The translations under genes were made by a program, and so were the position numbers. This document shows, in pieces, positions 1 to 58,037 of a stretch of DNA of 58,037 bases. The notes under the pieces are model-generated. The model searched no databases. It was not told the origin of the DNA and saw only the letters and a list, made by a program, of their open reading frames with translations. Location: IMG/VR virus record IMGVR_UViG_3300045988_081319; one strand, 5' to 3'. Position 1 is the stretch's first letter. Each line of letters begins with the position of its first letter. The stretch comes from a virus.

Positions 1-22
1 TTTGTTCTTTCCTACAATTATA
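1..22. repeat. Terminal overlap, copy 1 (identical to 58016-58037)
   Basis: tttgttctttcctacaattata is read at both window ends. Confidence 0.85.
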
Positions 23-2639: not shown

Positions 2640-2896
2640 ACGTCAATCACCTCCGCACTGTCGCACCATGCCTCATACCGGCAGCGAATATCGTCTTCAA
2701 GTCCTTGATATGGTACTACGCCCCGAACCACGCGCAAATCTATGTCATACTCATCAACACCGACGTCCGTATGATAGGTCTGCGCCGAAGGTATGAGGTA
2801 CACGTCTACCGTGCCATCTCCGCATGGTTCAATGGCATAAAATTTTCTCGCGGGGTGATCTCTCGGAGAGTTACCGCGATTCTGCGATGCTCTCAT
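2636..2896 (-). CDS. Hypothetical protein
   Basis: ORF with GAAGGGAG 8 nt before MRASQ. Sits between the RT remnant and the lysis genes. Confidence 0.6.
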   Translation of the reverse strand: MRASQNRGNSPRDHPARKFYAIEPCGDGTVDVYLIPSAQTYHTDVGVDEYDIDLRVVRGVVPYQGLEDDIRCRYEAWCDSAEVIDV

Positions 2897-3397
2897 AGGC
2901 TTGCTCCCTTCTTGTGCTGTCGCGTTGCAGGACAATGTTCTCTTCTATCCAGCGGCGCAGATTATAGCCGTTCTTATGCTGTGACATTCCGATATAACTC
3001 CGGATTGTGTCGAGCGCGGAATCCAGATCAATCGCGCCGATGGCGTACATCTCTTCGATGTGTTTCATAGCCCGCTTCGCGTGCCGTACCGTCCGTTTCC
3101 TCGACGGATGCCGTGCGGCGTGATGATACATCCGACAAATTCCACCGGCTGATCTATGCGGCACACGCACGTTTTGTTGTTGAGGCTCAATTTCAGCGCT
3201 GTCCAGAGAAAGTCTTCAATCGCGTCTTTGACAGCTTCGACATCTTCAGCCTTGATAATCAGGTCTACGTCATCCACATAGCGAATATAGTATTTTATTC
3301 CCAGCCTGTGCTTGCAGTATTTGTCCAAGCAGTCAAGATAAGCGTTCGCCGTCTCCTGCGACGTAAGGTTACCAATCGGCAGACCCACATCGTACAA
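2871..3397 (-). pseudogene. DGR reverse transcriptase remnant (N-terminally truncated and frameshifted)
   Basis: GLPIGNLTSQ (DGR-type motif 4) and YIRYVDD (YxDD box) lie in ORF 3065-3397. The C-terminal region (RSYIGMSQHKNGYNLRRW) is in another frame, with the shift near 3099-3106. Motifs 1-3 are absent. Confidence 0.8.
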
Positions 3398-3445
3398 CCG
3401 CTCGGAGCGTGGGCATTCATCGGCGCTTCTGCCGGGAGGCAGCCC

Positions 3446-3478
3446 ATTTCAATCCACGCTCCCCGCACGGGGAGCGAC
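3446..3478 (-). CRISPR. Solitary type I-C-like CRISPR repeat (no array, no cas genes)
   Basis: Minus strand GTCGCTCCCCGTGCGGGGAGCGTGGATTGAAAT. It has the GTCGC start, a 7-bp GC stem (GCTCCCC/GGGGAGC) and the GTGGATTGAAAT tail characteristic of I-C repeats. Confidence 0.75.
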
Positions 3479-3504
3479 AATTGCCGCCGCGCCGGGGAAA
3501 CCGC
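3479..3504 (-). repeat. Remnant of DGR template repeat (first 26 nt only)
   Basis: GCGGTTTCCCCGGCGCGGCGGCAATT is identical to 4211-4236 in the target gene. Similarity stops abruptly at the CRISPR repeat. Confidence 0.7.
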
Positions 3505-3570
3505 AGAAAGCAGAAAGCAGAAACAGAGGCGCGTATTTTGGCGTATTCCCAAGACTAAGGCAGAAAGCGC

Positions 3571-4050
3571 TCAGTCGCACTCTCTGCCGTCGTTCTTATA
3601 CGGTACGGCTTCGACCTTTTGAATCCATGCGTCAAGCATCTTGCCCGTTTCGATCAGCAGACCAGACCACACGCCGTAGGTATGGTCATCGACGAGCCGC
3701 TTCATATCGGTGATCTGAGCGCCGTTTTCATCTTTCGCGGGCTTTCCGCTCACGCGCCGCGTCACCTTGTACTTGGCGCAGTTGCTTCTACGCAGCAGAC
3801 GGAAAAGCGCGGCGAGCCGTGCATCAGCTTCGTGCAAGCTGGTTTTGATGCGGTACTTCCGCTGTGCCATTTCCAGCAGCACTGCAATCTCGTCTATCAG
3901 TTCCGGCATCCGCGTTCCCCGCGTAAAACGGTACTGGCGCGGCCACTGGTTGATCTGGTTCTCGCCATATTCGCAGGCGTCACCAAACTTCTGCTGCACG
4001 GTTGCTTTCATTGCCATTGCCTGACGGCTTTCGGTTTTCTTTTCGCTCAT
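3571..4050 (-). CDS. avd: DGR accessory variability determinant (Avd-like)
   Basis: 159 aa, basic and helical, with an Avd-like C-terminal motif ETGKMLDAWIQK. Canonical position between VR and TR. Confidence 0.7.
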   Translation of the reverse strand: MSEKKTESRQAMAMKATVQQKFGDACEYGENQINQWPRQYRFTRGTRMPELIDEIAVLLEMAQRKYRIKTSLHEADARLAALFRLLRRSNCAKYKVTRRVSGKPAKDENGAQITDMKRLVDDHTYGVWSGLLIETGKMLDAWIQKVEAVPYKNDGRECD

Positions 4051-4076
4051 ATCATCATCCTCTCAACGGGAGACGA

Positions 4077-4098
4077 GGGCGACGCTCCTGCGCCGCCC
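4077..4098 (-). promoter_or_regulatory. GC-rich hairpin immediately downstream of VR
   Basis: Minus strand GGGCGGCGC-AGGA-GCGTCGCCC (9 bp including one G.U, tetraloop), 9 nt after the target stop. It resembles the VR-flanking hairpin of the BPP-1 DGR. Confidence 0.5.
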
Positions 4099-4106
4099 TT
4101 CAGTTT

Positions 4107-4236
4107 TCAGGTTTCAAGGAAGCCGCCGCGCACGCCAAGGGCCACGCCCGCGTACGAGCGCGGGCTGAGCGAGGACACATAGCCCAGCCCAGCGTTCGAC
4201 GTGTTGCTGTAATTGCCGCCGCGCCGGGGAAACCGC
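4107..4236 (-). repeat. DGR variable repeat (VR) at the 3' end of the target gene
   Basis: Begins with the 26-mer shared with the TR remnant. Encodes GGNYSNTSNAGLGYVSS..GVRGGF with Asn/Ser/Tyr-rich positions. The extent towards the stop codon is inferred. Confidence 0.65.
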
Positions 4237-5318
4237 TCGCCCTGAGCAAACTGCATGTAGCAGTAGCCCTGCGTCGTATCGCCAGGCGTCGGGAACAGAC
4301 CGAGTTCATACAGGAGCGCGGGCACATACGGGATGTTCGCGGAATTGACTGCGAGGTCTTTGAAGGACGTTCCGCGATACTCACTGTCGAACGTCGGCGC
4401 CACGGTATCCAGCGTGATTTTGCTGTTTGCCCACGTCCAGTGCAGCGTACCGGACGTGCCGGGAGCCACGAGGGTATGGCCGTTGTTCGCAGAGTTCGGC
4501 AGGATTGCCTTCCAAGCGGCGCTGCTGGCAGACAAGTCAGCGGAGGGGTCGGCGGCGTTGTTGTTTTCAAGCACCTGCAATTCGCCATCATAGATTCTGT
4601 AACCGTAATCCTGATCGAAGCAGTTGCCATTCACATCGTCAATGCCGCTGATCGTTCCATCAAGCCGCCAAGATGCGGGGCCGGAACCCGTCAGCGTATT
4701 GTAGCCGCGATAGCTATTGTCCGCACTGTACTGAGAGGCAACAGGCGTACCGCCGACATGCTTGCCCTTCTTCCAGTAGCCAACATCCTCCGAAGGAAGA
4801 TGCTCCGCGCTGGTCGTATGAGCTACGAGGGCGGTATACTCCCAGCTGCGAAAAACACGCTTGTCGCCAACGGCGACGCTCTTATTCAGTTCGAAAGAGG
4901 TGCCATCGCGGTAATCAACGCCATAAGCGTTGTTACCCTTCGGAACCCAGCCGTTCTTCTTGGCGAGCAGCAGAATCAGGCCGCTGTCTGCACAGGTTTT
5001 CGGGCCGAAGCCAGTACCGCAGGCTTTAATCTTTGCAAGCAACTGATCGGCGCCCGTGTTGACCAGCGGCGGCATGTTGGGGATGGAATGGCAGGCTTCG
5101 TTATGGCTGCTGCCTTTGAAGACGGCAATCAGGCGGCGGTCGATTTCCTGACCGTTGACGATGAACGCCGGGTGCGTATGCTCCGGAAGGCTCGCGTCGA
5201 GGTCAGAGCTTTTGCACTTGTAGATGGGATAAAAGAAATTGGGCGTACCATCGTCAGCATACTTGACGACCCAGCCCATTTCCTGAGCGAAGCGCTCAAT
5301 GGAATCGTGCAGTCCCAT
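4107..5318 (-). CDS. DGR target: receptor-binding tail fibre protein with C-type-lectin-like variable C-terminus (Mtd-like)
   Basis: 403 aa. C-terminus RRGGNYSNTSNAGLGYVSSLSPRSYAGVALGVRGGF resembles the CLec/FGE-type DGR variable fold. Follows the tail-fibre genes. Confidence 0.8.
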   Translation of the reverse strand: MGLHDSIERFAQEMGWVVKYADDGTPNFFYPIYKCKSSDLDASLPEHTHPAFIVNGQEIDRRLIAVFKGSSHNEACHSIPNMPPLVNTGADQLLAKIKACGTGFGPKTCADSGLILLLAKKNGWVPKGNNAYGVDYRDGTSFELNKSVAVGDKRVFRSWEYTALVAHTTSAEHLPSEDVGYWKKGKHVGGTPVASQYSADNSYRGYNTLTGSGPASWRLDGTISGIDDVNGNCFDQDYGYRIYDGELQVLENNNAADPSADLSASSAAWKAILPNSANNGHTLVAPGTSGTLHWTWANSKITLDTVAPTFDSEYRGTSFKDLAVNSANIPYVPALLYELGLFPTPGDTTQGYCYMQFAQGERFPRRGGNYSNTSNAGLGYVSSLSPRSYAGVALGVRGGFLET

Positions 5319-5467
5319 TATTCAGCGCCTCCCATCAATTCCACGAGTTCCTGATACTCTTCCGCAGTGATGCGGTCGGCCATCAGAAACACGTCGAGCT
5401 TCTGCAAGGTCTTTTCACGGTCATAGCCGCCCTTGGTGATGATGCGCTTCATCAGCTTGTAAGTCAT
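5318..5467 (-). CDS. XkdX-like small phage protein
   Basis: MTYKLMKRII...ITAEEYQELV. GGAGG lies 9 nt upstream. Paralog of 5544-5702. Confidence 0.55.
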   Translation of the reverse strand: MTYKLMKRIITKGGYDREKTLQKLDVFLMADRITAEEYQELVELMGGAE

Positions 5468-5543
5468 GTTCATTTCCTCCAATCTTGCAAGGTCGCGTTT
5501 GAACTGCCTCTCGGCAAAGAAAAAGGCGATGCTGTCGATGATC

Positions 5544-5702
5544 TTATTCATCGGGCATCATCGCCACGAGTTCCTGATACTCCGTCGCCGTCAGCCGGTC
5601 GGCGGCAAGAAAAGCGTCCAGCTTATCCATCGTCGCAGCCCGGTTCAGCGTGCCGTTTTTGACGTCCCGCGCAATGATACGCTTCATGAGCTTATACGCC
5701 AT
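5544..5702 (-). CDS. XkdX-like small phage protein (paralog)
   Basis: MAYKLMKRII...LTATEYQELV behind a GGAGAGGAGG RBS. Confidence 0.55.
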   Translation of the reverse strand: MAYKLMKRIIARDVKNGTLNRAATMDKLDAFLAADRLTATEYQELVAMMPDE

Positions 5703-5967
5703 CGTTCGATTCCTCCTCTCCGCCGATTGCACTGATCGTCATCTCATACAGCATTTCAGCCATGAGATCGTCGTGCTCTGCAATGGTTTCCGTGTTAGCC
5801 TTTTGCCGAGCAGCAAAAGCCTTGTAGGGTGCAAGCTCCGCTTCCGAGCGAGCTTCGCGTTCCGCTTCCCACTCCGCGATCTGCTCAGGCGTCGGCGGGG
5901 CCGGAAACGGCTCGCTTGTTGCCTGCGCGTCTTGCGACGTGCCAAGCGCTTCTTTGTTGTCCGTCAT
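5692..5967 (-). CDS. Hypothetical acidic protein (XkdW position)
   Basis: ORF trimmed to MTDNKE behind AAAGGAGAAGG. Lies between the fibre and XkdX-like genes. Confidence 0.6.
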   Translation of the reverse strand: MTDNKEALGTSQDAQATSEPFPAPPTPEQIAEWEAEREARSEAELAPYKAFAARQKANTETIAEHDDLMAEMLYEMTISAIGGEEESNDGV

Positions 5968-50641: not shown

Positions 50642-51265
50642 GTGACCGCAAAATCGGCAATTAGAAGGATGCTCGCAGTGAATAACATTGACCGTTTTTC
50701 GGGGCAAGAGAGGTTCACACTCAATGGTATTGATACATCCGCGCAAGTTCTCGACTTCTGGTGCTGGATGGGGTCAGACCTCAACGACAACCTGATACGC
50801 GCAGCACTCGGTGAGTTTATCGTCGCTACTGCGCTCGGCGATTCCGTCGTGGATGAGCGCCGCAGCGGCTGGCGAGTGTTCGATATTCTCACGCAGTACG
50901 GATGCAAGATCGAGGTCAAAACATCAGCCTACCGTCAGGTTTGGAAGCAGCGCAAGCCGTCTTCTCTCGTCTTCGATGTCGCTCAGAAAATAGACTGGGA
51001 GAATGGCAGCAATGCTCCGAAGCGCCATGCAGACGTGTATGTCTTCTGTGTGTTCAATAACGAGCAAGACGTGGCAAGCCCCCTTGATCTGGAAGCATGG
51101 GATTTCTATGTCGCCGCGACCGCAGACATGGACGTCATCCTCGGAGAGCAGAAAACCGCGACGCTTGCGGCCCTGAAGAAACGATTACCGTTGAGAGCGA
51201 CCGGCTACACCGGCTTGGCGATGGCTATATTCGACACTTATCGCAGCATTGGAGGGATGGAATGA
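50642..51265 (+). CDS. PD-(D/E)XK nuclease-fold protein (putative), moron position
   Basis: RVFDILTQYGCKIEVKTSAY (D...E-x-K) and ADVYVFCVF. GTG start, or ATG at 50669. Confidence 0.45.
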   Translation: MTAKSAIRRMLAVNNIDRFSGQERFTLNGIDTSAQVLDFWCWMGSDLNDNLIRAALGEFIVATALGDSVVDERRSGWRVFDILTQYGCKIEVKTSAYRQVWKQRKPSSLVFDVAQKIDWENGSNAPKRHADVYVFCVFNNEQDVASPLDLEAWDFYVAATADMDVILGEQKTATLAALKKRLPLRATGYTGLAMAIFDTYRSIGGME

Positions 51266-51456
51266 TGCAAATCATTACGCTGAAGCAGTATCTTCAAAAC
51301 CCCGAAACGGTCATCAAGAGTGCTGCCGCAGGGGACTATACTGCTGTAAAAGTAGGCAACGGACAATGCGCCGTGATTATCGACGACACAGAATGGACGA
51401 TGCTTCGGCAGGCTCTCGCCCTCTGTATGGAGCACCCCGAATGGACGGCGAAGTAA
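51262..51456 (+). CDS. Small Phd/YefM-like protein (64 aa)
   Basis: MMQIITLKQYLQNPETVIKSAAAGDYTAVKVGNGQCAVIIDDTEWTML. The ATG overlaps the upstream TGA (ATGA). The 3' end overlaps the integrase start. Confidence 0.45.
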   Translation: MMQIITLKQYLQNPETVIKSAAAGDYTAVKVGNGQCAVIIDDTEWTMLRQALALCMEHPEWTAK

Positions 51457-52652
51457 AAAAGCGCAAAAGGAAGGGCGAGCGAAAAGACAAACGCATCCAG
51501 ATTACTTACACGGATGGCGTTCGTCCGGACGGTCATCCGAACCGCATCTCTTTCTACGGGCGCACTCGAACGGAAGCGCTGGAAAAGCGCGAACGGTATA
51601 AGCGTGAAAAAGAGCAGGGCTTGGCTCATGGTGAAAGAGCCACCACCGTGAACGATTGGATAGCTCGCTGGCAAGAGGCGTACTCCGTCAACGTGAGCGA
51701 TTACGCGCCATATATCAACCGTCTCAAAAAGGACTTGGGCAAGAAGCCTATCCGAAGCGTTTCTGAAGCCGATCTCGTTCAGTCTCTATCTGCCTATGCT
51801 GGAATGTCATCTTCGTCCGCGCTGAAATACAGGATGATTCTCAAGCAGATTTTCCACAAGGCCAAGAAGAACCGGCTTATACCAGAAGACCCTGCGGAGG
51901 ATTTGCCGCTTCCGGACGACGTTACTACCGGCACTCATCGAGCGCTTGCTCCTTGGGAAAGCGAGTGCATACTGAACAATTGGTCTGTGTACCATGCCGG
52001 ACGTTGGGCAATGCTCATGCTGCTCTGTGGTCTACGACGCGGGGAAATGGTCGCTCTGGACTGGGATGCCATAGACCTTGAGAGCAGGAAGCTGACCGTC
52101 AAGGCATCCGCGTCCATGCGTGGAAGCGTTACGACGGTCAAAGACAGGACGAAGACGAAGGCAGGTGCGCGCATTCTGCCGATCTGCGAGCCGCTGTATC
52201 AAATGCTGGTGCAGGTTCCTCCGGAAGAGCGAACCGGCCCTGTGTGTCGGAGCGCAAAAGGCGAGCGGATAACGCAGTCTTCCGTTGACCGGTGCTGGAA
52301 GACGTACTGTAACATGATGACACGCATCTTGAACGGCGAAGAACCAGATCAAAGAGGACGACGGCGAGACTGCGTTGGGGACAAGTACCGCAGTTCATCT
52401 GATGACGATGGCGGTGAACGCATTGTTTTCTCTTGTTTGCCGCACGACCTTCGTCACACCTATGCAACCGCCTTGTATGACGCAGGTGTTGACATCAAAA
52501 GCGCTCAATACTATCTTGGGCACGATGACGTCAACATGACCATCAACCTCTACACGCACTTGTCCAAGATAAAAGAAAACGAGGCCCGCAGCAGCCTCGT
52601 GAATTATCTGGATAAATGGCTCGATAAGCACCTTTTGCCTGTTAAAAATTGA
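51441..52652 (+). CDS. int: Tyrosine integrase
   Basis: C-terminal catalytic region LRRGEMVAL..HDLRHTYATALYDAGVDIKSAQYYLGHDDVNMTINLYTH. Confidence 0.9.
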   Translation: MDGEVKKRKRKGERKDKRIQITYTDGVRPDGHPNRISFYGRTRTEALEKRERYKREKEQGLAHGERATTVNDWIARWQEAYSVNVSDYAPYINRLKKDLGKKPIRSVSEADLVQSLSAYAGMSSSSALKYRMILKQIFHKAKKNRLIPEDPAEDLPLPDDVTTGTHRALAPWESECILNNWSVYHAGRWAMLMLLCGLRRGEMVALDWDAIDLESRKLTVKASASMRGSVTTVKDRTKTKAGARILPICEPLYQMLVQVPPEERTGPVCRSAKGERITQSSVDRCWKTYCNMMTRILNGEEPDQRGRRRDCVGDKYRSSSDDDGGERIVFSCLPHDLRHTYATALYDAGVDIKSAQYYLGHDDVNMTINLYTHLSKIKENEARSSLVNYLDKWLDKHLLPVKN

Positions 52653-56499: not shown

Positions 56500-57714
56500 T
56501 CATGCCACCGCAGTGCAGCGGGTGACGATAGTCTGCTTTACTCCATCACGCTCAGAATGGCTCTTGATTGACGCTTTCAGGCGTTTCATCGGGTCAACGC
56601 ACTTCGACGAATACCAGATCAGGACGTTGCCGAGCACATCAACGATCTTGTAGAGGAAGGTGTAGCCGTAGTCGTTCTCCCACGAAGTCAGAAGGTTCAT
56701 TTCAGCCACGTCCACGGTCACGCGCTCGCCGACTTCGCCGATATAGTCCGAAGAAGTGCGCTCCCTGTTTTTCGACGCTTCCCGTTCGTCGTTCTTGCGC
56801 TTCCACTCAACGTATCGCTCATAAGCAACGGGCGCATAGGCGAGATACCCGAAATGGCTTTTCTTGCAGTAGCCACCGCGAACAAGCGCTTGCGTGTTAT
56901 TCAGCAGGTTCTTCATTGCTGCGCCATCATCAACGGCGTCGATCTCTGTGGCAAGCGCGGCGCCTTCGGCCAGCTCTTTCTCGGTGAGGGTTTCCTTGGC
57001 TCGGCCCAGCATTACGTCCTTGTTGCTGCGGGATTCACCGCTGCTGCGATACCCCTGTTCTTTCCTGACCTTGATGGCGAGCGCGAGGATTCGCGCTGTT
57101 TCATAGGCCGTCGGGACGGGCCGGACGTCGAAGTCGTAGCGCTCAACGTCAAGGCCAAGAATCAGATCAGACAACTGCTTCGCAATACCGACGCCCTGAG
57201 GGTCGATGCCGCAGTAGTCCTTCAAGCAGGTACGACCGACCTGCTTTTCGGTTCCATCCTCGCCACGCACAATGAACGTGATTCGCTGACCGTGGTTCCC
57301 GTTGCAGTGGTCGCAATGAGGCTTCAGCTTCGTCCATGCCGGATTCGCTTCATCCGAGAAAGCAGCGACGATATTGCCGCCATCCAAGTGCTCAATCTTC
57401 GCAACGACCGAGTAGTTGCCGTTCCGGATGATCTCACCCTCAATGCTCAAGTCGAAGACTTCGATCATCTGCTCGCCGACCTTGCTGTGGCTAAAGGTTC
57501 CCGTGGTATAGTCGATGCACTCTTCGTAGACGTTCCGCTTGGTGGCATAGGGTTCGCCAGCGTCTACGGTCAGACTGGTTCCATAGGCCATTGCCTTCTT
57601 CTGATAGCGGGCGAGAATCTTCAGAACGTTTTCACGCTCGCTCTCTGGAATGGTGTAGGTTTCTTTCACTTCTGGTTCCTCCTTTATGCCTTCATGGCTT
57701 TCATAACTTGTCAA
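56500..57714 (-). CDS. Hypothetical protein (404 aa) with CxHC motif
   Basis: PHCDHCNGNHGQRITFIVRGEDGTEKQVGRTCLKDYCGI. No family assigned. Confidence 0.6.
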   Translation of the reverse strand: MTSYESHEGIKEEPEVKETYTIPESERENVLKILARYQKKAMAYGTSLTVDAGEPYATKRNVYEECIDYTTGTFSHSKVGEQMIEVFDLSIEGEIIRNGNYSVVAKIEHLDGGNIVAAFSDEANPAWTKLKPHCDHCNGNHGQRITFIVRGEDGTEKQVGRTCLKDYCGIDPQGVGIAKQLSDLILGLDVERYDFDVRPVPTAYETARILALAIKVRKEQGYRSSGESRSNKDVMLGRAKETLTEKELAEGAALATEIDAVDDGAAMKNLLNNTQALVRGGYCKKSHFGYLAYAPVAYERYVEWKRKNDEREASKNRERTSSDYIGEVGERVTVDVAEMNLLTSWENDYGYTFLYKIVDVLGNVLIWYSSKCVDPMKRLKASIKSHSERDGVKQTIVTRCTAVA

Positions 57715-58015: not shown

Positions 58016-58037
58016 TTTGTTCTTTCCTACAATTATA
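58016..58037. repeat. Terminal overlap, copy 2 (identical to 1-22)
   Basis: Same 22-mer as the window start. Confidence 0.85.

What the first reader, a model, noticed from the sequence alone, without database searches (positions are those of the whole stretch)
2871..5318. Decayed DGR: intact target, VR, hairpin and Avd, but a 26-nt TR stub and a broken RT
Seen in the sequence:
- Canonical DGR order on the minus strand. The target gene (5318..4107) ends in an Asn/Ser/Tyr-rich CLec-like segment.
- A 9-bp GC hairpin with a tetraloop follows, 9 nt after the stop (4098..4077).
- Next comes an Avd-like gene (4050..3571), then a 26-nt match to the VR (3504..3479).
- Last is an RT fragment with the DGR hallmarks IGNLTSQ and YVDD.
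- The RT lacks motifs 1-3 and needs a frame change near 3099-3106 to reach its C-terminal region.

Established knowledge:
- DGR RTs carry the [LIV]GxxxSQ motif 4.
- The TR is normally about 100-140 nt and about 90 percent identical to the VR, differing at TR adenines.

Inference:
- Mutagenic retrohoming is no longer possible, so the receptor-binding VR is frozen in its last state.
- The otherwise intact target and avd genes suggest the loss is recent.
Basis: partly seen in the sequence, partly recalled or inferred. Interest (0 to 1): 0.7.

Follow-up and report, generated by a model that had tools for sequence, protein, structure and literature searches.

The report
CRISPR repeat scar killed phage DGR
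A gut phage lost its protein-diversifying retroelement when 923 bases of it were replaced by exactly one CRISPR repeat of its host, most likely by recombination with the host's CRISPR array; this gives a base-by-base example of how phages can acquire solitary CRISPR repeats.

Summary
The target gene, VR, hairpin, Avd, a 26-nt TR stub and an RT lacking its N-terminus and carrying a frameshift are all present, and the VR is frozen. Directly after the TR stub lies one exact 33-nt type I-C CRISPR repeat (window 3446-3478, minus strand).

- **What was replaced.** A sibling phage about 97% identical (L028) has the full TR and a 389-aa RT. In the window, 923 bp of that (TR nt 27 to its end, the spacer, and RT codons 1-184) are replaced by exactly one repeat.
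- **Breakpoint geometry.** Both breakpoints fit type I-C protospacers. The right one directly follows a TTC in the intact siblings. The left one lies 34 nt (the modal spacer length) after a TTC. The joint chance probability is about 0.001.
- **Host link.** The same 33-mer builds arrays of 145 or more repeats next to I-C cas operons in the host lineage. There the PAM is TTC for 22 of 25 protospacers, and adjacent co-linear spacer pairs from one phage occur.
- **Best explanation.** A double spacer/protospacer recombination with a host array.
- **After the event.** Fourteen copies share the junction and an identical VR, but carry different secondary lesions.
- **Not settled.** No array holding the two spacers was found. 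Whether the repeat now acts as an RNA anti-CRISPR is untested.

The parts
4107..5318 (-). DGR target gene (variable protein, 403 aa) with an FGE-type CLec fold inferred by homology
   Evidence: ORF. It matches TaqVP, PDB 5VF4, at E 1.7e-36 with alignment to the C-terminus, and PHROG 2889 at 3e-72. It sits among tail and baseplate genes.
4118..4236 (-). Variable region (VR), now frozen
   Evidence: It is 85.6% identical over 118 nt to the TR of sibling L028. 13 of 17 differences lie at TR adenines, and the VR is identical in 14 copies.
4077..4098 (-). GC-rich hairpin downstream of the VR (9 pairs, tetraloop)
   Evidence: Fold energy -20.5 kcal/mol, z -3.5.
3571..4050 (-). avd (accessory variability determinant), intact in this sublineage
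   Evidence: Pfam bAvd 41.1 bits against a cut-off of 40. PHROG 3206 'Avd protein of DGR' 3e-17. NCBIfam DivGenRetAVD 48 bits, below its cut-off of 80.
3513..3515 (-). TTC, in the PAM position for a 34-nt protospacer that ends at the repeat
   Evidence: Read directly from the sequence. PAM TTC was verified for this repeat family at 22 of 25 protospacers.
3479..3512 (-). Left flank: a 34-nt protospacer-like segment ('A'). Its last 26 nt (3479-3504) are the only remnant of the TR.
   Evidence: The 26-nt stretch is an exact repeat of the VR. The segment is colinear with the TR start of L028 and L033. 34 nt is the modal spacer length.
3446..3478 (-). Solitary type I-C CRISPR repeat GTCGCTCCCCGTGCGGGGAGCGTGGATTGAAAT, which replaces 923 bp
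   Evidence: Single copy in the window. It is identical to the repeats of arrays next to I-C cas operons. Hairpin energy -16.8 kcal/mol, z -3.4. It replaces L028 2488-3410.
3411..3445 (-). Right flank: protospacer-like segment ('B'), equal to RT codons 185 onward. Its TTC PAM (Phe184 codon) exists only in intact siblings.
   Evidence: L028 and L033 read ccgTTC|GGGCTGCC. The more distant relatives L005-L007 also have TTC GGG CTG.
2871..3445 (-). RT remnant (residues 185 to the end; motifs 4-7 and thumb), with a 1-nt deletion at about 3102 that shifts the frame
   Evidence: tblastn of the L028 RT: aa 185-298 at 99% and aa 290-389 in another frame. RVT_1 C-terminal part only. PHROG 1423 reverse transcriptase 7e-30. 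The frameshift is polymorphic among copies.

Best explanation
The locus is a relic diversity-generating retroelement of a temperate gut phage. One event inactivated it. The stretch between two type I-C protospacers was replaced by the single CRISPR repeat that separates the two matching spacers in a host array. One protospacer spans the start of the TR. The other begins at RT codon 185.

The most likely route is a double homologous exchange, or gap repair templated by the array. The host array read spacer A - repeat - spacer B, co-linear with the phage. Each spacer supplied about 34 bp of homology.

The product keeps protospacer A with its PAM. Protospacer B loses its PAM, because the repeat's ...AAT takes the place of TTC. 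The phage also loses TR nt 27 to its end, the TR-RT spacer and RT residues 1-184. Mutagenic retrohoming therefore stopped and the receptor-binding VR was fixed in its last state. The remaining avd and RT pieces are now drifting into pseudogenes.

Shown here:
- the exact replacement;
- the PAM and spacer-length geometry;
- the identity of the repeat with host arrays;
- the frozen VR and the secondary decay.

Inferred:
- recombination with an array was the mechanism;
- the event was selected, either through escape from spacer B or through gain of a repeat RNA.
For: 1. **Exact insert.** It is one repeat unit, 33 of 33 nt, with no extra base. The spacers in real arrays start and end with variable bases, which sets the boundaries of the repeat unit.
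2. **Intact siblings.** L028 (99.0% and 96.4% identical on the two sides) and L033 carry 923 bp there: a full 118-nt TR and the RT N-terminus. In L028, 11 of 11 VR/TR differences lie at TR adenines.
3. **Right breakpoint.** It directly follows TTC in L028, L033 and L005-L007.
4. **Left breakpoint.** It is 34 nt after a TTC.
5. **PAM and spacer length.** For arrays with this very repeat, the 5' flank of 25 distinct protospacers is TTC in 22 and TTT in 3. Spacer length peaks at 34 nt.
6. **Chance.** The probability that both breakpoints fit is about 0.0012, or 0.0006 when the repeat's orientation is included.
7. **Required substrate.** In these arrays, adjacent spacers from one phage occur on the same strand, co-linear, 381 and 521 bp apart.
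8. **Host link.** The prophage sits beside the cob operon gene His_Phos_1. One contig (ERZ28757802 contig_5042) holds both that flank and an I-C locus with this repeat.
9. **Not an artefact.** The same junction occurs in 14 assemblies from ENA, Logan, NCBI, JGI and IMG/VR. These copies carry lineage-specific later lesions.
10. **Second junction.** Phage contig L002 has the same repeat joined at a site that is preceded by TTC in four repeat-less relatives.
Against: - No array with spacers A and B was found. The metagenome scan for spacer B followed by a repeat gave 0 hits. The viral scan for a repeat followed by spacer A gave 0 hits.
- None of 1,405 unique spacers from 20 arrays of the host lineage matches this phage or its intact siblings. 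The L002 phage family, by contrast, is hit about 100 times per locus.
- The product keeps protospacer A with its PAM, so the exchange alone would not free the phage from the array that made it.
- The TTC upstream of the left breakpoint lies in a T/C-rich run (ctgctttctgctttctg), where TTC is common.
- L002 ends 6 nt beyond the repeat, so it could be an assembly chimera.
Confidence: 0.8

Rival explanations
1. The solitary repeat is kept because it works. Transcribed with the late genes, it would bind the host's Cas5d and Cas7 as an RNA anti-CRISPR (Racr). Alternatively, together with the RT-derived sequence after it, it would act as a one-repeat mini-array. This concerns the repeat's present function and is compatible with the origin proposed above.
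For: - Solitary repeats in phages inhibit CRISPR-Cas, including type I-C (RacrIC1) (PMC10651486).
- The repeat is identical to the host's and folds into the canonical hairpin.
- It is on the same strand as all surrounding phage genes.
- It shows no substitution in 14 copies.
- The repeat-bearing lineage is common (567 index blocks for its Avd), whereas I found only two full-length siblings.
- No spacer against this phage occurs among 1,405 spacers.
- Such a function would explain survival despite the retained protospacer A.
Against: - No sigma-70-like promoter was found within about 770 nt upstream. Published candidates were chosen for having a promoter within 250 bp.
- The neighbours are avd and RT remnants, not acr genes.
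- 33 invariant bases among copies that differ by about 0.6% is what neutrality predicts.
- The prevalence comparison is crude.
Confidence: 0.25
2. Ordinary decay. A spontaneous deletion removed the TR and the RT N-terminus, and the sequence at the junction merely resembles a CRISPR repeat.
For: DGRs of this phage group do decay independently. L027 lost avd, the TR and most of the RT without any repeat. L033 has a stop codon in the RT.
Against: - A 33 of 33 match to a repeat found in arrays of up to 146 copies cannot be chance. There were 0 matches in 100 shuffles even with 3 mismatches allowed.
- A deletion adds no sequence.
- The breakpoints fit PAM geometry.
Confidence: 0.01
3. Assembly chimera. 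Assemblers joined phage reads to a host array through shared spacer sequences.
For: This could apply to L002, whose contig ends 6 nt beyond the repeat.
Against: - The window's junction has phage DNA on both sides.
- It recurs in 14 assemblies from different pipelines and sources, including megabase contigs.
- The frozen VR and later pseudogenisation show that the deletion is old and real.
Confidence: 0.01
4. The repeat entered by a route other than homologous exchange with an array. Candidates are aberrant Cas1-Cas2 integration or disintegration, template switching by the DGR RT onto pre-crRNA, or capture from another mobile element that carried a solitary repeat.
For: None directly. The retained, still targetable protospacer A is easier to accept if escape from interference was not the driver.
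Against: - Cas1-Cas2 integrates spacers at repeats, not repeats into targets (established knowledge).
- DGR cDNA homes to the VR, not to the TR-RT interval.
- None of these routes predicts that both breakpoints sit on PAM-flanked, spacer-length units in the repeat's orientation.
Confidence: 0.04

Closest known systems
Solitary repeat units (SRUs) of viruses and RNA anti-CRISPRs (Racr), e.g. RacrIC1 (Faure et al. 2019; Camara-Wilpert et al. 2023, PMC10651486)
   Same: A single CRISPR repeat, identical to the host's, sits in a (pro)phage genome without cas genes. It is of type I-C, for which a Racr has been shown to work.
   Different: Here both flanks are the phage's own genes, cut exactly at PAM-defined protospacer borders, and an intact sibling shows what was replaced. 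No own promoter and no acr neighbour were found. Function is untested. The papers I could read do not explain how SRUs arise.
Spacer-protospacer recombination between phages and CRISPR loci (Varble et al. 2019; Watson et al. 2018; known to me only through citations)
   Same: Homology of one spacer length between array and phage is used for recombination.
   Different: The described outcome is transducing particles that carry CRISPR-cas loci, produced by single exchanges. Here a double exchange left a one-repeat scar and a 923-bp deletion in a viable, widespread phage lineage.
Virus-borne CRISPR mini-arrays (Medvedeva et al. 2019; review PMC11656645)
   Same: A host-type repeat lies next to a sequence that matches close relatives of the virus. 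Segment B matches intact siblings, which carry the PAM.
   Different: There is only one full repeat. After 34 nt there is merely a 6-of-8 resemblance to the repeat's start. The 'spacer' is simply the continuation of the phage's own RT gene.
Phage DGRs of the BPP-1 type with a CLec-fold target (Mtd, TvpA, TaqVP)
   Same: The gene order is target-VR-hairpin-avd-TR-RT, the RT has IGNLTSQ and YVDD, the target is homologous to TaqVP, and the sibling L028 shows adenine-specific VR/TR differences.
   Different: In the window the TR is a 26-nt stub and the RT lacks residues 1-184, so this is a relic and not a working DGR.

Membership tests
Diversity-generating retroelement (functional) | Template repeat about 100-140 nt long, about 90% identical to the VR, differing at TR adenines | tested here: not met
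   Only 26 nt remain and there is no other VR-like copy in the circular genome. Sibling L028 meets the feature with 118 nt and 11 of 11 differences at A.
Diversity-generating retroelement (functional) | Complete RT with motifs 1-7, including [LIV]GxxxSQ | tested here: not met
   IGNLTSQ and YVDD are present, but residues 1-184 are absent and the frame is broken at about 3102. NCBIfam has no DGR-specific RT model; the best hit is group II intron RT, below its cut-off.
Diversity-generating retroelement (functional) | Avd accessory protein | tested here: met
   Pfam bAvd above its cut-off and PHROG 'Avd protein of DGR' 3e-17. NCBIfam is below its cut-off.
Diversity-generating retroelement (functional) | Target protein with the VR at the C-terminus of a CLec fold, followed by a GC hairpin | tested here: met
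   Homology to TaqVP 5VF4, E 1.7e-36, reaching the C-terminus. Hairpin z -3.5. The fold is inferred by homology and was not predicted here.
Type I-C CRISPR repeat | Sequence identical to repeats of arrays adjacent to cas3-cas5d-cas8c-cas7-cas4-cas1-cas2 | tested here: met
   The exact 33-mer occurs in the array of Faecalibacterium sp. CAG:74 beside Cas8c, Cas7, Cas4, Cas1c and Cas2 (NCBIfam equivalogs). It also occurs in 15 further loci with full I-C operons.
CRISPR array or mini-array | Two or more repeats separated by a spacer | tested here: not met
   One copy in 58 kb, even with 3 mismatches allowed.
RNA anti-CRISPR (Racr) | Solitary repeat in a viral genome that mimics the host's repeat in sequence and hairpin | tested here: met
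RNA anti-CRISPR (Racr) | Own promoter close upstream (within 250 bp in the published selection) and/or acr genes alongside | tested here: not met
   No sigma-70-like site in 3300-4250. The neighbours are avd and RT remnants, and the nearby small ORFs have no anti-CRISPR match. Read-through from the late operon remains possible.
RNA anti-CRISPR (Racr) | Inhibits CRISPR interference by sequestering Cas proteins | not testable with these tools
   Needs expression and plaque assays in an I-C host.
Product of spacer/protospacer recombination | Breakpoints coincide with the borders of PAM-flanked protospacers, in the repeat's orientation | tested here: met
Product of spacer/protospacer recombination | A donor array with the two matching adjacent spacers exists | tested here: inconclusive
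   It was not found in one metagenome scan, one viral scan or 20 arrays. That is a tiny sample: the matching Cas2 is indexed in 23,125 blocks.

The most novel reading that the evidence does not exclude
The scar may be an asset. In an I-C-positive lysogen, the repeat could be cut by Cas5d. The downstream RNA would then carry the 11-nt 5' handle followed by RT codons 185 onward and load into Cascade. The resulting guide would match only DGR-intact sibling phages, because they keep the TTC PAM that the scarred phage lost. The upstream half (stub plus hairpin) could meanwhile soak up Cas proteins like a Racr. One recombination with the host's array would then turn a targeted phage into one that blunts the host's CRISPR and recruits it against its closest competitors. 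That would explain why the DGR-dead lineage is so common.
Probability: 0.12. Interest if true: 0.85.

Novelty: new variant of a known kind. Interest (0 to 1): 0.68.

Why it matters
Solitary CRISPR repeats are widespread in phages, and some act as RNA anti-CRISPRs. The papers I could read do not show how a phage acquires one. Here the 'before' genome (L028) and the 'after' genome (the window) both exist. The junctions are exact to the base and fit the host system's PAM and spacer length. This makes a specific origin testable: a host array used as a recombination donor through two adjacent spacers.

It also shows a cost of CRISPR pressure for phages, because the collateral loss here was the phage's own receptor-diversifying machine. 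That left a widespread gut prophage with a fixed receptor-binding tip. Practically, such repeat scars link a phage to its host lineage and record a past encounter with CRISPR. They could be searched for systematically.

Tried and rejected
- **Rfam.** Nothing at gathering thresholds. Only weak CRISPR-DR9 and DR21 hits (17 bits) in the permissive mode, so the repeat had to be proven through real arrays.
- **INPHARED phages.** No blastn match for the DGR region.
- **Donor array.** Not found in the metagenome scan for spacer B plus repeat or the viral scan for repeat plus spacer A.
- **Spacer searches.** None of 102 spacers from GTDB genomes, 27 from L037-L045 or 1,405 unique spacers from L056-L079 hits this phage. 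The one hit (25 nt, CTG-rich, no PAM) is chance.
- **Cas2 homologue P0267.** Its loci carry a different repeat, so they were of no use.
- **One CAG:74 spacer in IMG/VR.** It gave a single protospacer flanked by CTC. The 25-protospacer set replaced that result.
- **Window ORF 56500-57714.** The look-up failed because the start codon was called differently.
- **Protein searches for a close full-length RT.** Only short clusters were returned. The intact sibling came from a DNA pattern instead.
- **Cracr-like reading.** A test for guide B repressing the host cas promoter found only a TTC plus 7-nt seed inside cas3, 19 of 35 identical, p about 0.08. I treated it as chance.
- **Varble et al. 2019.** The paper is not held.
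- **Structure prediction.** Not run, because homology to TaqVP answered the fold question.
Full report
**1.

On the minus strand the window carries the following DGR parts:
- A 403-aa target gene (5318..4107).
- A GC hairpin (4098..4077; -20.5 kcal/mol, z -3.5).
- avd (4050..3571). It matches Pfam bAvd above the cut-off and PHROG 'Avd protein of DGR' at 3e-17.
- An exact 26-nt copy of the VR start (3504..3479 = 4236..4211).
- An RT remnant with IGNLTSQ and YVDD that matches only the last part of RVT_1 (profile positions 118-205 of 205).

The target is homologous to TaqVP (PDB 5VF4), a solved CLec-fold DGR variable protein, at E 1.7e-36, and the alignment runs into the VR.

The window's ends share 22 nt, so it is a complete circular phage genome. 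It has an integrase at 51249-52652. It holds no second TR or RT.

**2. What was missed.**

The 33 nt directly after the stub read GTCGCTCCCCGTGCGGGGAGCGTGGATTGAAAT (3478..3446). This sequence occurs once in the window.

- Rfam gives only weak CRISPR-DR hits.
- The exact 33-mer forms arrays in GTDB genomes.
- In Faecalibacterium sp. CAG:74 the array directly follows Cas8c, Cas7, Cas4, Cas1c and Cas2, all NCBIfam type I-C equivalogs.
- In 20 further loci the array follows a full cas3-cas5d-cas8c-cas7-cas4-cas1-cas2 operon. Fifteen of these use the exact 33-mer as main or minor repeat, and the others use a 1-nt variant. Up to 146 repeats fall within the 10 kb fetched.

**3. Before and after.**

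A DNA pattern specific to an uninterrupted RT found L028, a human-gut contig. It is 99.0% identical to the window on the RT/lysis side and 96.4% on the other side.

L028 has a 118-nt TR, a 389-aa RT, and a VR that differs from its TR at 11 positions, all of them TR adenines. L033 is a second full-length sibling, with a stop codon in its RT.

In the alignment, L028 2488-3410 (923 bp) is replaced in the window by exactly the 33-nt repeat. The replaced stretch covers TR nt 27 to its end, the TR-RT spacer and RT codons 1-184. No base is shared or added at either junction.

**4. The breakpoints are protospacer borders.**

- In L028 and L033 the right junction reads ccgTTC|GGGCTGCC. The more distant relatives L005-L007 also have TTC GGG CTG.
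- The left junction lies 34 nt after a TTC (ctgcTTC|tgctttctgcggtttccccggcgcggcggcaatt|repeat).
- Both sit on the strand on which the repeat reads in crRNA sense.

I derived the PAM for this very repeat family. Among 1,106 unique spacers from ten arrays, 25 distinct protospacers were found in another phage (L002). Of these, 22 have 5'-TTC and 3 have TTT. Spacer lengths peak at 34 nt.

With TTC at 1.6% of positions, the chance that both breakpoints fit is about 0.0012.

**5. Substrate and host.**

Among the adjacent spacer pairs that hit L002, two are same-strand and co-linear, 381 and 521 bp apart. That is the configuration a double exchange needs.

The prophage form of this phage lies beside the cob operon gene His_Phos_1. 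The 90% cluster of that gene includes proteins named 'Christensenellales bacterium'.

One contig, ERZ28757802 contig_5042, holds both this flank (with another island at the attachment site) and an I-C locus with these repeats. The host lineage therefore owns the repeat.

In my recollection of GTDB, 'Faecalibacterium sp. CAG:74' gives its name to family CAG-74 of Christensenellales. I did not test this.

**6. Consequences.**

Fourteen copies from ENA, Logan, NCBI, JGI and IMG/VR share the junction and an identical VR, while 11 other sites in the target gene vary.

The window's VR differs from the sibling's TR at 17 sites, 13 of them TR adenines. Two of the other four are confirmed as TR polymorphisms by the stub itself. 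The DGR therefore worked before the event and has not worked since.

The copies fall into two sublineages with different later lesions:
- The window type has a 1-nt deletion in the RT at about 3102.
- The L001 type has a 1-nt deletion in avd and a 62-nt deletion in the RT.

The window's exact Avd is indexed in 567 blocks, on contigs of up to more than 1 Mb.

**7. Mechanism and rivals.**

Best explanation, confidence 0.8: a double spacer/protospacer exchange, or array-templated gap repair, with an array carrying spacer A - repeat - spacer B.

Weak points:
- The donor array was not found.
- None of 1,405 spacers hits this phage.
- The product still carries protospacer A with its PAM, so the exchange alone does not give escape.

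The last point is one reason to consider that the repeat now serves as a Racr or a guide source. Type I-C Racrs do exist (PMC10651486). Against this, I found no promoter and no acr neighbours. I put that reading at 0.25.

Chance resemblance and assembly error are excluded for the window. Assembly error remains possible for L002, where the repeat meets a site preceded by TTC in four relatives but the contig ends 6 nt further on.

**8. Comparison with what is known, and novelty.**

Relic DGRs are common. L027 and L033 show independent decay in this same phage group. Solitary repeats, Racrs and spacer-mediated recombination are all known.

In the library I could search, I found no description of a repeat-scarred deletion whose two breakpoints sit on PAM-flanked protospacers with an intact sibling for comparison.

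I class it as a new variant of a known kind: a solitary repeat with a readable origin, which happened to destroy a DGR.

Noticed in passing
L002:1-80 (IMGVR_UViG_3300045988_051741), with L066-L069: Another phage contig starts with 'agcgtg' plus the same 33-nt repeat, joined to ttgtggcgcgtcc.... In four repeat-less relatives that sequence is preceded by ...ggaTTC or ...ggcTTC. This is either a second repeat/protospacer junction of the same kind or an assembly chimera through a shared spacer.
   Followed up: partly
L002 and L066-L069, against arrays L056-L079: This other phage family is hit by about 100 spacers per 11-14 kb locus from 20 arrays of the host lineage. The window phage and its siblings are hit by none of the 1,405 unique spacers.
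   Followed up: partly
L027:5780-6420 (Logan SRR26926533): In a related phage the target gene and hairpin are followed only by a 109-aa middle piece of the RT and then the endolysin. There is no avd, no TR and no CRISPR repeat. This is an independent DGR decay.
   Followed up: partly
L033:5001-6119 (Logan ERR13267143): This sibling has a full TR and RT region, but TGG has become TGA at about RT codon 120, which splits the RT into 119-aa and 248-aa ORFs.
   Followed up: partly
window 3398-3411: Thirty-four nt after the solitary repeat, the native RT sequence reads caCGCTCCgaGCGG. This matches 6 of the first 8 bases of the repeat (GTCGCTCC), with p about 0.02 by my hand calculation. It could have extended the homology with the array, or it could mimic a degenerate second repeat.
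   Followed up: no
window 4099-4106, with L001, L023, L028, L030, L032, L033: A 13-nt indel (ctgaatctgaaac) lies between the target stop codon and the hairpin. It is present in the intact siblings and in one scarred sublineage, and absent in the window's sublineage.
   Followed up: partly
window 2871-2873 and 2636-2935: The RT remnant ends at TAA where L028 has CAA. In the distant relative L004 the RT reading frame runs on into a homologue of the 99-aa ORF 2636-2935, which has no Pfam or PHROG match.
   Followed up: no
window 5318-5551 and 5544-5732: Two tandem paralogous small genes (77 and 62 aa, PHROG 2310, a 79-nt repeat at 73% identity) lie just upstream of the target gene.
   Followed up: no
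window 3559-3588: A 12-pair terminator-like hairpin overlaps the avd stop codon, just upstream of the former TR. It is also present in the intact siblings.
   Followed up: no
window 1-22 and 58016-58037; L029-L032 and L080: The window ends share 22 nt, so the genome is circular. As a prophage it sits downstream of His_Phos_1 and CobU. In another strain the same site holds a small integrase/VapE island, which suggests an integration hot spot.
   Followed up: partly
L056-L065, about position 3610 (inside cas3, antisense): TTC followed by GGGCTGC (a 7-nt seed of segment B, 19 of 35 overall) is conserved in all I-C loci. With p about 0.08 and a location outside any promoter, I treated it as chance.
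   Followed up: yes
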